Shown here one piece after another: positions 33,874 through 57,749 of a stretch of 64,000 nucleotides of DNA (the stretch's first letter is position 1; the number at the start of each line of letters is the position of its first letter). The notes under the pieces were generated by a model, which saw nothing but the letters and a program-made list of their open reading frames with translations, made no database searches and had not been told where the DNA came from. The position numbers and the translations under genes were made by a program. The stretch comes from Eledone cirrhosa (lineage: Eukaryota): NCBI GenBank assembly GCA_964016885.1, contig OZ024740.1, positions 106,392,001 through 106,456,000 on the forward strand, in the 5' to 3' direction.

Positions 33874-33916
33874 ACGATGTACTAGTTTCAAGCTTATTAG
33901 CTATCGTCAGCATCGT
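33874..33916 (-). ncRNA. Minimal type I hammerhead ribozyme motif
   Basis: Minus strand reads ACGAUG-CUGACGA-U AGCU AAUA AGCU U-GAA-ACUAGU-A-CAUCGU: 6-bp stem I, palindromic stem III, GUA cleavage triplet. Confidence 0.85.
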
Positions 33917-34085
33917 ATACCTTCCTGCCAGATGGTTGAACGTCGGAAAGTATATACTTTCCTTATGCATATTAACGGCTGAGCAGCCTAATTTGCATAT
34001 CGAGTGAGTTCAGTCGACCGGGCACACCGAAAACGATAAATGGAATATATATATATATATATATATATATATTGCGAAATATATA

Positions 34086-34825
34086 TATATTGCGAAACGG
34101 TTCTATCAAAAACCGTCCAGGTGATGGGTAGTTACCACAATACTGGTTTGTATTTATTTTTCTTGATTTATTATTAAACTGAGTCTAGCAAACCCTTTTG
34201 TCTGTAGTTAGTATTTTTTCACCTTAGCGATTCTGGTCCATTATGATTTGAACACATATGTGTATATGTCTGTGTTCGTTTTTCTTTTTTGTTCAGTTAT
34301 ACTATACGGCTCGGAAAAACCTTTTTCTTAGAGCTAATTTACTGTATTGAGACAATTTTGAGTTTCTAACTCAATAATTGCCTTTGATATATTCGGCTCC
34401 GTTAATTCGTAGAGTTAATTCAAATGTCGTGTAGACCCGGCTGCTATCTTTAGTGGCGTGACTCTGCGCGACGCGCTAAGTTCGGAAACCATTTGCGTTA
34501 CATATACACACACTATCCAGTTCTTTATTTTATTTAGAAGTGATCAGGATACTAATTCTTCACCCGATGATGAGCTAGGAATTTGGTATACCTCTTCACA
34601 AATAATATTGCGAAACGGTTCTATCAAAAACCGTCCGGGTGATGGGTAATTACTACAATACTGGTTTGTATTTATTTTTCTTGTTATATTCTTAAATTGA
34701 GTCTAGCAAATCCTATTGTCTGTAGTTAGTAGTTTTATCACCTTAGCGATTCTGGTCCATTACGATTTGAACACATACATGTATATGTCTGTGTTCGTTT
34801 TTCTTTTTTGTTCAGTTATACTATA
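34086..34825 (+). mobile_element. Non-coding ~518-bp unit with ~220-bp terminal direct repeats and an HHR-like motif (retrozyme-like or PLE pLTR-derived)
   Basis: 34086-34306 repeats at 34605-34825 (offset 518-519). Flanked by (TA)n on both sides. Confidence 0.75.
34560..34642 (+). ncRNA. Hammerhead-like motif with a mutated core (AUGAUGA)
   Basis: TCACCCG-ATGATGA-GC...GC-GAAACGGTT-CTATCAAA-AACCGTC-CGGGTGA. Stems I and III are perfect; C3 is replaced by A. Confidence 0.65.
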
Positions 34826-34918
34826 TATATATATATATATATATATATATATATATATATATATATAAATATATTAATTCAAAATATTAATAAATATAGA
34901 CATTCATGTAATCAAATA

Positions 34919-34984
34919 TATTTTATTATATATATTTCAGAGCTCCTGTGCTGTTTCCTCAGTACGTCCTCATCAGATAAAATA
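34919..34984 (-). ncRNA. Type I hammerhead ribozyme motif (inverted pLTR copy)
   Basis: Reverse complement of 37964-38029 with one substitution. Confidence 0.75.
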
Positions 34985-35421
34985 AATTGATGTCTGACAT
35001 ACCTCAACTGTGCTGATGGTTCAATTCCAGTCTTGGCAGTGATTAGTTATGACAAAACTCAATATTTATATACCATAAGTTGTAACATGACAAACTACGT
35101 ATAATTGAGAGGGTGAGTAGGAAAACGTGTAGAAAAATATAAAATAAATACATATATATATAAGTAAAATACATAAACACAAAAGTACATAGCTGTTAAA
35201 TATTTAAATAATTAAATATGTAAATATCCGTATTAGAGAAAAAAAAACAAATGAGAGAGAGAGAGAGAGAGAGCTAAAGAGAGGAGAAAAGGAAAAGATA
35301 GAGAGATGAAGATAAAAACGAAGAAAGGGAGATATAGATGGTATAAAATAATTACATAAGGAAAAGAAGAATAGAGGTATATGATGCGTGACCGTTTATT
35401 TTCCAATATTAAGTTAGGAGA

Positions 35422-53720: not shown

Positions 53721-53790
53721 ATCATTATATTTTGTCTGATGAGGACGTACTGTTGTACATCCGAAATATGTATAATAAAATGTAATTGAT
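53721..53790 (+). ncRNA. Type I hammerhead ribozyme motif in a PLE pLTR homologous to 37960-38170
   Basis: ATCATTATATTTTGT-CTGATGA-GGAC GTAC TGTT GTAC ATCC-GAAA-TATGTA-TA-ATAAAATGTAATTGAT. Downstream sequence is colinear with 38030-38170 up to (TA)n. Confidence 0.85.
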
Positions 53791-55069
53791 CAAAAGAACA
53801 TCTATTTTATTAATATTTATATTTTAATATTAATAACTCCGGAAAATTATTTTACCGTAGAGTGCTTCCAATCTACTGTAAAACTCATTCTTTGACATAC
53901 TCATTGAATATTGTTTAACACTTTAATATATATATATATATATATATATATATATATATATATATATATATATATATATATATATTGTCGACAGGTGTTT
54001 TTGTTAGTTGATTTCACTAGTCTGGAAACCTGGAAGGTTAAATGGTGACATGAATACGTCTTCGATTTCACTGTTTAGTCGATGAATGGTTGATGTCTAT
54101 CTATGATTAAAGAGTTATCTCTTTCAACACACGTGGTTCCACACATGTACACATGTACACATGTACACTCATTACTAATGTATCTATTGACATTTATCGT
54201 CTGCAATATTGGTATTTGACTACTAAATGTGGCTTAACTCTGCTAAACACCGTTTAACACGTATGAGAAATATTTCAATCAATTAAAGACCATCGATAAA
54301 CAAGTAGACATTAATGCTTAACTGAACTCATTAGCCTTTTGATGAATCTGTCGAACTTCACTAGTTGTCCGTTCTGATATATGATAATCGTCTCCATAGT
54401 GCAAGCAGCTTCCCTTGGTATGTCGCCTTGAATGACATCATCGGAAGGTGCTTGATGAGTCTGGTTTCCCATCTCAACTGAAGCATGTAGGCCTTGACCT
54501 TGGTGACGGTAAACATCCAGATGATATAACCATTTTTTTCTTTCGAGATGGGGCAGAGGCGAACCTTTAATTTGGGCCGCCATATACCGTGGCATTTTCT
54601 CATATTTAAACAAACCCGGGCATTACCGTCTGTAATGCAAAGGAACAGAAGATATCTAAATACAGGGATTTGATCAACCATATCCTTTTCGTGCAGGCTG
54701 CTGTCGAAATATCTGGTGACCTTGATCCTGGGCTGCGGTTTTCATCCGCAAAATCGGGAAAAATGTGTCTCGCATGAGGAAGGAGCCTCATTAAACGGAA
54801 GGGGTATTCAGCTTAACCCTCCTTTTTCCCCTTCCTCTTTTTCATTATTTTGTTCCTCACATTTTTATAATTTTCTCCCTCTTCCTGTTTATTTTTTAAA
54901 TACTTTGTTTTAAAAAACCAAACATCCATCATTCATTGTTCAACAATAAATTATCCACACAATCATCTTAACATTCTCTTCGCTAAACCCTATATGCGTA
55001 GCAAGCATTAAAAGAAACACACAGACTAGAAAATAAATTGTTGATTTTTTTACAATTAAAAACTAATAT

Positions 55070-55945
55070 TTAGACGTGTGGGGGTCGGTTGGTGGGAAAG
55101 AGGGTTGTGGTGCAGTCAGTACCACGAGCGCGGGTAAGAGCAGCTTGGATCACGGTGGGTGGGTATTCATTTTGGATGGAGCGAGAAGCCATGCGTGGAC
55201 ACTGAAACTGGAAATCATGGTCCTGGCTGCAGAGCAGACGAAGACGGAAGAATTGTGAGTAGGGTATAGAGAGTTTGGTGTGGGTGTGATAGGAGGTGAT
55301 GTGGAGGTAGGAGTGGGAGTCAGTAGATTTACATGGAAATAGAGAGCGTGTGGTGAGTATGATCGATGGGCAGAAAAATGTCTTAAAATTGAACAAAAGA
55401 ATGAGAGAAGGAAATGGTGAAGGTAAGAGCTGGATAAAAAGACTGAAACAAGGAAAGAAGGAAGTCGAGATATTCACAAGAGTTATAGGTGGCGCCAATG
55501 TAGTCGTCGATGTAACGACCGTATAGCACATGTGTACTGGGAGAAAATCTTCACCTCGACGTAGCCAACGAACAAGTTGGTATAGTTCGTGCCCATTCTG
55601 GTTCCCATGGCTTCCCCAAACCTGATGGTAAAAATGCCCATTAAAAGAAAACCCATTAAGGGTGAGAATGAGCTGAGCAAGACGGAGAAGAGGGGAAGTG
55701 TTAGGGTCAGGTGTACAGCGTAAGTCCAAAAAGTGTCAGAGAGCGCGAAGGCCGTCATGGTGGGGGATGACGGTGCAGAGAGATGTGATGTCCAGGGTGA
55801 AGAGAAGGGGAAGGGGGAGGGGGTAGAAGAGAACGAGAAGGAGTTGAAAGACTAAGAGCATGATTGGTGTCGTCGAAGTGGGAGGGGAGGTCGGTACTAA
55901 GTAGGCGAGGAGGGTATCAAGGTATTGTGAGGTTATTTCAGTAGG
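55070..55945 (-). pseudogene. Degenerate Penelope-like (Neptune-type) RT fragment
   Basis: [79 protein letters not shown]. Confidence 0.8.
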
Positions 55946-57307
55946 TGCAGTTATATATATGTTTATATATATACATACATATATATATATATATATATAT
56001 ATATATATATATATATATATATATATATATATATATATGTATATATATTTATATATATATGTATATATATATATATATATATGTATATATATTTATATAT
56101 ATATGTATATATATATATATGTATATATATATGTATATATATATATATATATGTATATATATATGTATAATATATTTATATATATATGTATATATATATA
56201 TATATATGTATATATATATATATATATGTATATATATATATATGTGTATATATATATATATATATGTATATATATATGTATAATATATTTATATATATAT
56301 GTATATATATATATATATATGTATATATATATATATATATGTATATATATATATATGTATATATATATATATATATATATGTATATATATATATATATAT
56401 ATATATATATATGTATATATATATATATATGTATATATATATATATATATGTATATATATATATATATATATATATGTATATATATATATATATATATAT
56501 ATATATATATATATATATGTATATATATATATATATATATATATATATATATGTATATATATATATATATATATATATATGTATATATATATATATATAT
56601 ATATATATATATATATGTATATGTATATATGTATATATATATATATATATGTATATATATATATATATGTATATATATATGTATATATATATGTATATAT
56701 ATATAAGAACAAAAGATGGTTATCATCATGCAATAATATTTGTGTTTTCATCAGATAAAACATGAAGACATGATATGAAGGTTAAAAAACACTTGTGGAT
56801 AGTTCAGTTTTAAATCAATATATATATATATATATATGTATATATATATATATATATATATATATATATATATATATATATATATATATATATATATATA
56901 TATATGTATATATATATATATATGTATATATATATATATATGTATATATATATATATATGTATATATATATATATATATATATATATATATATATATATA
57001 TATATGTATATATATATATATATGTATATATATATATATGTCTATATATATATATATATATATGTATATATGTATATATATATATGTATATATATATATA
57101 TATATTTTTTTATATATATATATATGTAAATATATATATGTATATATATGTATATATATAGATGTATATATATATATATGTATATATATATATATATATA
57201 TATATATATATATATATATATATATATATATATATATATATATATATATATATACATATACATATATATATACATATATATATATATATATATGTATATA
57301 TATATAT

Positions 57308-57749
57308 CTTGCTTTTATCGAGAATCTCAAATTGTAATACGTGACGTATTCTATTCTATAGCGATTGGGTCTTCAAAATGTTTATTATAAACATACAGAA
57401 TATTTTCGAATATTCTATGTTTGTCTTCACATATATATCGCTATTTCAGTTCATTAAATCCAAATTCTAATTTCTGCCGGACCGGCTACCGCTCTTTCAA
57501 ACCAGTTCCTGTACACAGCTAAGTATTCTATAAGTCTCTAGCTGTGTCGTTCTCGATAAAAGCATTGGATATGTAATCCTGATGATTTCTAATAAGAATG
57601 AAACGCGTAGGTTACTTCCCTTGCTTTTATCGAGAATCTCAAATTGTAATACGTGACGTATTCTATTCTATAGCGATTGGGTCTTCAAAATGTTTATTAT
57701 AAACATACAGAATATTTTCGAATATTCTATGTTTGTCTTCACATATATA
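57308..57749 (+). mobile_element. Retrozyme-like non-coding element: 312-bp unit, ~1.4 tandem copies, one HHR
   Basis: 57308-57437 appears identical to 57620-57749 (offset 312). Inserted in (TA)n. Confidence 0.8.
57550..57636 (+). ncRNA. Type I hammerhead ribozyme with extended stem I
   Basis: GTAATC-CTGATGA-TTTCT AATA AGAAT-GAAAC-GC-GTA (cut after 57609)-GGTTAC; distal 15-bp helix TTCTCGATAAAAGCA/TGCTTTTATCGAGAA. Confidence 0.9.

What the first reader, a model, noticed from the sequence alone, without database searches (positions are those of the whole stretch)
33874..57615. Second HHR subclass: U-U-closed stem II, AAUA loop, palindromic stem III
Seen: 33874-33916(-) and 57573-57615(+) have unrelated flanks but the same architecture, CUGA(C/U)GA-U-N4-AAUA-N4'-U-GAA-[ACUAGU or ACGCGU]-A. 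Stem I covaries (ACGAUG/CAUCGU vs GUAAUC/GGUUAC), as does stem II (AGCU/AGCU vs UUCU/AGAA). U-U replaces the usual G10.1-C11.1 pair, and also occurs at 48768, 49106 and 45979. Established: HHRs with tiny palindromic stem III cleave as dimers. Inference: cleavage may be gated by tandem-copy transcription.
Basis: partly seen in the sequence, partly recalled or inferred. Interest (0 to 1): 0.7.

Follow-up and report, generated by a model that had tools for sequence, protein, structure and literature searches.

The report
Retrozyme hammerheads with a U·U mismatch
These two motifs are copies of self-cutting-RNA (hammerhead) sequences from two very abundant non-coding jumping repeats of this animal genome; their U·U mismatch is real and family-wide but already known from axolotl and other natural hammerheads, and they likely cut efficiently only as pairs, as their published relatives do.

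Summary
Both motifs are exactly as described. They are type I hammerheads of two unrelated non-coding repeat families, A (419-433 nt unit) and B (310-312 nt unit), which fit non-LTR retrozymes.

U·U is family consensus, not decay: 18,461 exact matches in the genome and 0 for the reversed control. It is not a new subclass. Natural U10.1·U11.1 is published (Perreault 2011), and so is the axolotl retrozyme HHR_Amex2 (~60,000 copies, better as a dimer).

AAUA is not defining: about 10,700 of about 14,500 family B copies have another loop (AACG, AACA or UACG in those listed) while keeping U·U. Relatives of A close the stem with G-C (~2,000) or C·A (~1,090) and have the same palindromic stem III, so dimer dependence does not depend on U·U. 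Of the three extra sites, only 49106 has an intact core.

Insertions carry the Penelope footprint: opposed arms, one long and one short 3' end, (TA)n target. The scan found this, and family B, before on other DNA of this genome. What remains of value is a natural allelic series at this pair for kinetic tests. No RNA or cleavage evidence was obtained.

The parts
33874..33916 (-). Family A type I hammerhead: C3 at 33910, U10.1 33903, U11.1 33890, palindrome 33886-33881, predicted cut after A17 at 33880 (GUA)
   Evidence: Rfam HH9 17.6 bits, below gathering score
33863..33931 (-). Extended helix I of family A with UAU bulge on the 5' strand opposite U (canonical loop 1 element, inferred tertiary partner of loop 2)
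   Evidence: compared
33587..34045 (-). Family A insertion, 1.07 units, one hammerhead; 3' end at unit position 276 (long end) running into TA repeats; 5' end abuts (TA)n 34045-34090
33991..33998 (-). Octamer motif ATGCAAAT, 119 nt upstream of the cut, kept in A, D and C, absent from B; promoter role is untested
57573..57615 (+). Family B type I hammerhead: C3 at 57579, U10.1 57586, U11.1 57599, palindrome 57603-57608, predicted cut after A17 at 57609 (GUA)
   Evidence: Rfam HH9 20.6 bits, below gathering score
57552..57634 (+). Extended helix I of family B with UAU bulge opposite U and an 11-13 bp distal stem
57308..57750 (+). Family B insertion, 1.42 units of 312 nt, one hammerhead; 57308-57438 repeats 57620-57750 exactly; 3' end at unit position 141 (short end); lies inside the (TA)n tract 55952-58781
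49065..49113 (-). Separate long-helix-II hammerhead-like motif with intact core and U·U at the base; other repeat family, weak helix I
34871..38170 (+). Broken Penelope-like element (RT remnant, CxCX5C linker, GIY-YIG-like remnant) with an inverted 551-bp arm, an extension on one side only and (TA)n on both sides; context only, no sequence similarity to units A or B was found

Best explanation
The two motifs are canonical-type I hammerheads of two unrelated non-coding repeat families that fit non-LTR retrozymes, in which U·U replaces G10.1-C11.1 family-wide, likely as a tolerated weakening of helix II, and which are predicted to cleave well only as dimers through the palindromic helix III. Shown: the core, the family-wide U·U, the 310-430 nt tandem units, the two fixed 3' ends and the (TA)n target. 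Inferred: tandem arrays are transcribed; neighbouring ribozymes pair their palindromes into a 6-bp helix III and cut at GUA; unit-length RNAs are circularised, reverse transcribed and inserted by a Penelope-like element in trans. Also inferred: the loop 1/loop 2 contact offsets the loss of G-C. The dimer gate comes from helix III and is shared with the G-C-closed relative. The two copies in the window are single-ribozyme, truncated insertions and probably dead ends unless they pair in trans.
For: Family-wide U·U: 18,461 exact matches, control 0; one-sided departures number 234 and 375. In family B only 6 copies lack U11.1 and none of the 6 has G10.1, against about 14,500 with U·U (3,744 + 10,489 + 233). 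Units 419-433 nt (A) and 310-312 nt (B), 34-37% GC; circular folds z = -5.1 to -8.8. Monomer helix III probability 0; palindrome duplex -4.8 / -7.5 kcal/mol. Head-to-head arm pairs carry one short and one long 3' end in 21 of 29 (A with D), 7 of 7 (C) and 2 of 2 (B) pairs, never two of a kind; the other 8 A pairs have at least one end outside both classes. This matches the Penelope inverted copy plus one-sided tail. Precedent: axolotl HHR_Amex2 has U·U, cuts 22% in 1 h as a monomer and much better as a dimer; U·U is the best-tolerated mismatch at this pair.
Against: No transcript, circle or cleavage was shown: the run search gave no run on record as RNA from this organism, and contigs cannot show ends or circles. 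No autonomous Penelope element sharing sequence with A or B was found in the window, and none was searched for genome-wide. In the family B monomer fold helix II is mostly not formed (probability 0.07-0.17), so B may be weaker or folded differently. The Rfam matches are far below the gathering score. In the 2026 preprint 8 of 9 tested Xenopus dimers did not cleave, so activity cannot be assumed.
Confidence: 0.8

Rival explanations
1. U·U is selected as a brake: a slower, dimer-only ribozyme keeps the circular RNA intact or leaves multimers uncut, so weakened families spread better than G-C families.
For: U·U copies (at least about 29,000) outnumber G-C-closed family C (about 2,000). U·U occurs in two unrelated families and in axolotl. 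It persists while family B changed loop 2 three times and N7. A second mismatch, C·A with a GUU site, also amplified (1,090 copies).
Against: Copy number reflects a few source copies and family age: C is younger (2.5% pairwise mismatch against 7.9% for A) and itself forms arrays of up to 15 units. Family B has no promoter motif in common with A, so families differ in more than this pair. U·U is simply the least harmful mismatch, which predicts recurrence without selection for weakness.
Confidence: 0.25
2. Cleavage no longer matters for these families: the hammerhead is a relic carried along in DNA- or transcript-level amplification, and U·U and C·A are decay fixed in source copies.
For: A C·A/GUU subfamily spread to about 1,090 copies. 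Most A and D copies have no same-strand partner (19 of 88 and 4 of 100 have one). Most tested Xenopus dimers were inactive.
Against: All catalytic core positions, the U...A ends of loop 2, the helix I bulge and a palindromic stem III are kept across A, B, C and D while stems swap compensatorily. Subfamily changes in B fall on N7 and loop 2 only (4 of 310 positions), the positions a working hammerhead can vary.
Confidence: 0.1
3. The units are the pseudo-LTRs of autonomous Penelope-like elements, and the copies seen are 5'-truncated remnants of them.
For: Penelope-type ends and target; retrozymes resemble pLTRs in Xenopus.
Against: Arrays are pure head-to-tail units, up to 27 in a run; arms in the loci mapped begin at scattered unit positions and abut an inverted arm or unrelated DNA. 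The ribozymes have 6-bp helix I and short helix II, unlike the long-helix-II motifs on the window's own Penelope elements.
Confidence: 0.07

Closest known systems
Axolotl retrozyme ribozyme HHR_Amex2 (Cervera and de la Pena 2020, PMC7229834; parts 2-4 of 6 and passages read; supplement not readable; figure not seen)
   Same: Type I hammerhead with a U·U mismatch at the base of helix II, tens of thousands of copies, short tandem unit (350 bp), better cleavage as a dimer; a second family lives in the same genome.
   Different: HHR_Amex2 has a 2-bp helix III plus tetraloop. Families A and B have the weaker 1-bp helix III with a palindromic tetraloop described for HHR_Amex1, so they combine both weakening features, and they keep the loop 1/loop 2 elements.
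Metazoan non-LTR retrozymes as non-autonomous Penelope-like elements (PMC7229834; Li, Clavereau and Pollet 2026, 10.64898/2026.07.22.740005, parts 1-3 of 5 read, supplements closed)
   Same: Non-coding tandem units of a few hundred bases, low GC, one type I hammerhead per unit, proposed mobilisation by Penelope-like elements.
   Different: In the parts read these papers argue from co-occurrence and pLTR similarity; here the insertion ends themselves show the Penelope footprint. No cephalopod or octopus retrozyme paper was found.
Natural U10.1·U11.1 hammerheads (Perreault et al. 2011, PMC3088659; passages read)
   Same: The same mismatch at the same pair, reported as natural and as the mispair that supports most activity.
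   Different: Reported there as a rare variant; here it is the majority state of two large families.
Schistosoma mansoni and Rfam HH9-type canonical type I hammerheads (PMC2632901 passages; Rfam RF02275)
   Same: 6-bp helix I, internal loop with U and a bulged pyrimidine, six-base loop 2 ending in A (CAAAUA there, UAAUAA here).
   Different: They have G10.1-C11.1 and, in the HH9 model, a 3-bp helix III.
[quoted passage not shown]
   Same: Tiny palindromic helix III, dimer-dependent cleavage.
   Different: Those have a long helix II, a short helix I, an extra base after A9 and a conserved G10.1-C11.1; A and B have none of these.

Membership tests
Non-LTR retrozyme | Type I hammerhead in each unit | tested here: met
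Non-LTR retrozyme | Short head-to-tail units (150-450 bp) of low GC | tested here: met
   A 419-433 nt, B 310-312 nt, 34-37% GC; runs of up to 5 (A) and 27 (B)
Non-LTR retrozyme | Non-coding; no RT frame in the unit | tested here: met
   no frame of 120 codons in 33587-34045; only TA-repeat frames touch the ends of 57308-57750
Non-LTR retrozyme | Unit folds into a highly self-paired circle | tested here: met
   prediction only: z -8.8 and -6.9 (A), -5.1 and -5.5 (B) against 30 shuffles each
Non-LTR retrozyme | Expressed as linear and circular unit-length RNA | tested here: inconclusive
   only contigs of unknown or guessed kind were available
Non-LTR retrozyme | Self-cleavage in vitro | not testable with these tools
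   needs transcription assays
Canonical type I hammerhead | Core CUGANGA, GAA, A15.1-U16.1, H17 | tested here: met
Canonical type I hammerhead | G10.1-C11.1 pair | tested here: not met
   U·U in A and B; published as a tolerated natural exception
Canonical type I hammerhead | Loop 1/loop 2 tertiary elements (U and bulged pyrimidine in helix I; loop 2 ending in A) | tested here: met
   by sequence only; the contact itself was not tested
Canonical type I hammerhead | Helix III stable in the monomer | tested here: not met
   probability 0 in A, B and C; palindrome duplex is favourable
Penelope pLTR minimal hammerhead | Long helix II (7-8 bp), short helix I, extra base after A9 | tested here: not met
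Autonomous Penelope-like element | Repeat flanks an RT-EN reading frame | tested here: inconclusive
   not so in the window; no genome-wide test was run
Penelope-type insertion | 5' truncation, inverted adjacent copy, extension on one end only, microsatellite target | tested here: met
   30 of 38 head-to-head pairs are short+long, none short+short or long+long; (TA)4 follows 70 of 86, 18 of 18 and 6 of 6 classed ends; definition

The most novel reading that the evidence does not exclude
This genome holds a natural experiment in ribozyme tuning. One retrozyme lineage has run through G-C/GUC, U·U/GUA and C·A/GUU at the most conserved helix II pair and the cut site together, and an unrelated lineage reached U·U/GUA independently and then walked its loop through AAUA, AACA, AACG and UACG. 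[quoted passage not shown]
Probability: 0.25. Interest if true: 0.55.

Novelty: new member of a known kind. Interest (0 to 1): 0.27.

Why it matters
As a ribozyme subclass it matters little: the U·U pair, the palindromic stem III and dimer cleavage are each published, two of them together in axolotl retrozymes. Its use is as test material. Closely related natural variants (G-C, U·U, C·A at 10.1/11.1; four loop-2 sequences on an otherwise near-identical 310-nt unit) allow a direct measurement of how much catalytic rate a retrozyme needs, and of how its circle avoids cutting itself, which the 2020 paper leaves open.

Tried and rejected
Whole-window Rfam scan: no hammerhead at E up to 1, only TA-repeat microRNA matches; small-window scans were needed.

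Reading the first U as the 'extra base after A9' of Penelope-type hammerheads: rejected, since the shifted register does not pair in A or B (sequence).

Further U·U families with a strong second pair: 8 matches only, all scattered old copies.

Old family E (ACAUGU palindrome, G10.1 with C or U at 11.1): flanks unrelated to A, B, C; 3 copies keep G-C under a tight pattern. G·U there is probably CpG decay (inference).

RNA evidence: one run search and two layings gave no usable evidence of expression, ends or circles; absence in X11 and X17 is no evidence.

Per-position conservation table: not used, because the loci had been selected by the core pattern.

One row of alignment A1 (A_old_L012) was given wrong coordinates and is ignored.

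Pfam did not recognise the Penelope remnants beyond one weak RVT_1 match.

Lünse et al. (RNA Biol 14:1499) could not be read; it and the unread supplements of PMC7229834 and the 2026 preprint may list further U·U or mollusc examples. A promoter role for the octamer, recalled from newt satellite 2, found no readable source.
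Full report
OBSERVATION. Both motifs are present as written. In hammerhead numbering each has C3-A9, U10.1, a short helix II, U11.1, G12-A14, a six-base palindrome from A15.1 to U16.1, and A17; helix I is 6 bp. A whole-window Rfam scan missed them. On short stretches the HH9 hammerhead model matches weakly (17.6 and 20.6 bits against a gathering score of 52), puts U·U in the G10.1-C11.1 column and reads loop 2 as six bases, UAAUAA. Helix I extends beyond a UAU bulge opposite U in both, the arrangement described for the Schistosoma ribozyme, whose loop 2 is CAAAUA (passages). 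So these are canonical-type ribozymes with their tertiary elements kept. Of the three extra sites, 49113(-) has an intact core with U·U but a long helix II; 48768 has CAGAAGA fixed in its family; 45979 has G at position 3 and a homologue closed by A and C.

FAMILY CONSENSUS OR DECAY. The window is C1:106,392,001-106,456,000 of a 3.0-Gb genome.

AAUA IS NOT DEFINING. Family B has 10,489 further U·U copies with a different loop (AACG or AACA in all 100 listed) and 233 with UACG, the first 100 of them all U·U, at 9 loci. AAUA is thus about a quarter of B. One UACG unit differs from one AAUA unit at 4 of 310 positions, all in the ribozyme: N7 and three loop bases. The first U and last A of the six-base loop are kept throughout.

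AN ALLELIC SERIES. With non-U on both sides the pattern has 3,071 matches. These are family C (G-C closed, GUC site, 469-nt unit, about 2,000 by subtraction) and subfamily D (mostly C·A, GUU site; 1,090 copies with C10.1). A and C are homologous along the unit body (score 158, best of 200 shuffles 45), while B matches neither (35 and 29). In a tree of 51 copies, one per locus with a long enough upstream flank and with positions 10.1, 11.1 and 17 removed, C is one side of a fully supported branch, and the six D rows fall with two one-sided variants in a supported group (95/93) among A rows. The root is only a midpoint, so G-C as the ancestral state is inferred from its general conservation, not shown. 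The closing pair and the cut-site base change together (G-C with C17, U·U with A17 in both A and B, C·A with U17); with four families this may be chance.

WHAT THE REPEATS ARE. Units are 419-433 nt (A) and 310-312 nt (B), 34-37% GC, non-coding and head-to-tail. As circles they fold far below shuffles (z -5.1 to -8.8; C -13.2). These are the features of metazoan non-LTR retrozymes. Arm ends were mapped in the loci fetched, after dropping overlapping duplicates and arms touching a locus edge. 5' ends are scattered; 3' ends fall in two classes per family (A near 220 and 260-276; C near 230 and 299; B 141 and 166-172) and usually run into (TA)n: 70 of 86, 18 of 18 and 6 of 6 classed ends. Of 38 head-to-head pairs 30 have one short and one long end, none has two alike, and 8 (all A) have an end outside both classes. 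That is the structure described for Penelope-like elements: inverted 5'-truncated copy, extension on one end only, microsatellite target. The window's own broken Penelope element at 34871-38170 shows the same layout and has the CxCX5C linker given for the Hydra clade, which inserts in (TA)n. It shares no sequence with A or B, so the actual helper is not identified. I had seen this footprint before consulting the scan's notes, which report it many times for this genome. A 2026 preprint already proposes retrozymes as non-autonomous Penelope elements.

MECHANISM. In the monomer the palindrome allows one pair and a four-base loop; computed helix III probability is 0 in A, B and also in G-C-closed C, and the palindrome's 3' half mispairs with the core in the A and C folds. 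Two copies can form a 6-bp duplex (-4.8 and -7.5 kcal/mol). Dimer dependence for such motifs is established. Replacing U·U by G-C stabilises the isolated helix II hairpin by 3.3-3.8 kcal/mol, so U·U is a real weakening, and in B helix II is poorly populated. The gate, however, belongs to helix III and not to U·U. Tandem arrangement does not follow the closing pair either: among the first listed exact matches, a same-strand neighbour within 600 nt is present for 19 of 88 A, 92 of 100 B, 46 of 69 C and 4 of 100 D copies (neighbours with a mutated core or other loop are missed, more so in the older A and D). Both window copies hold one ribozyme (1.07 and 1.42 units). Expression and cleavage remain untested: no suitable RNA run was found.

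PRIOR ART. Perreault et al. 2011 report natural U10.1-U11.1 hammerheads and note that this mismatch supports more activity than any other mispair (passages). Cervera and de la Pena 2020 describe axolotl HHR_Amex2, about 60,000 copies, with a U·U mismatch at the base of helix II, 22% monomer cleavage in one hour and much more as a dimer. A and B differ in joining that helix II to the weaker one-pair helix III of HHR_Amex1. Searches for an octopus or cephalopod retrozyme paper found none; that the host is a cephalopod comes from the scan's earlier notes and was not checked. One key paper and two supplements could not be read.

VERDICT. A real, abundant feature and a new member of a known kind. 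The subclass claim does not hold, since U·U is published, AAUA varies and the dimer gate is shared with G-C relatives. The residual interest is the natural variant series as a test of whether weak ribozymes help retrozymes spread. Interest 0.27.

Noticed in passing
window 34871-38170 (+): Broken Penelope-like element with a CxCX5C linker as in the Hydra clade, long-helix-II hammerheads at 34976(-) and 37972(+), inverted 551-bp arm, about 93-bp extension on one side, (TA)n on both sides.
   Followed up: partly
window 50260-52053 (-) and 55070-55851 (-): Two more reverse-transcriptase remnants that look Penelope-like; the first gives only a weak RVT_1 match.
   Followed up: no
window 49320-49692: A 373-bp near-perfect palindrome made of two opposed repeat ends, each with a hammerhead closed by A10.1-U11.1. 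Across the window's long-helix-II hammerheads this position reads G-C, G·U, A-U or U·U.
   Followed up: partly
window 33991-33998 (-); L087, L075: Octamer motif ATGCAAAT kept 119 nt (A, D) and 131 nt (C) upstream of the cut although A and C are otherwise well diverged; absent from B. Possible internal promoter element (recalled for newt satellite 2, not confirmed in a paper).
   Followed up: partly
L126; G000 C2:186,672,853-186,684,631: Young family B subfamily with a UACG loop, 233 copies, two-armed arrays of over 30 units; differs from an AAUA unit at only 4 of 310 bases, all in the ribozyme.
   Followed up: partly
L105-L121: Old, decayed hammerhead family E with an ACAUGU palindrome and the same UAAUAA loop; C11.1 mostly read as T, as CpG decay would give.
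   Followed up: partly
window 48481-48813 and 47170-47493: Common repeat family ending in (TA)n with a hammerhead-like but non-canonical CAGAAGA...GAA segment fixed in all copies seen.
   Followed up: partly
window 4-25958: 53-bp satellite of about 490 copies, 92% matches.
   Followed up: no
window 39521-42590 (-) and 61102-63813 (-): Two LINE-like remnants with endonuclease- and RT-like frames; the second matches RVT_1 and a PHD finger.
   Followed up: no
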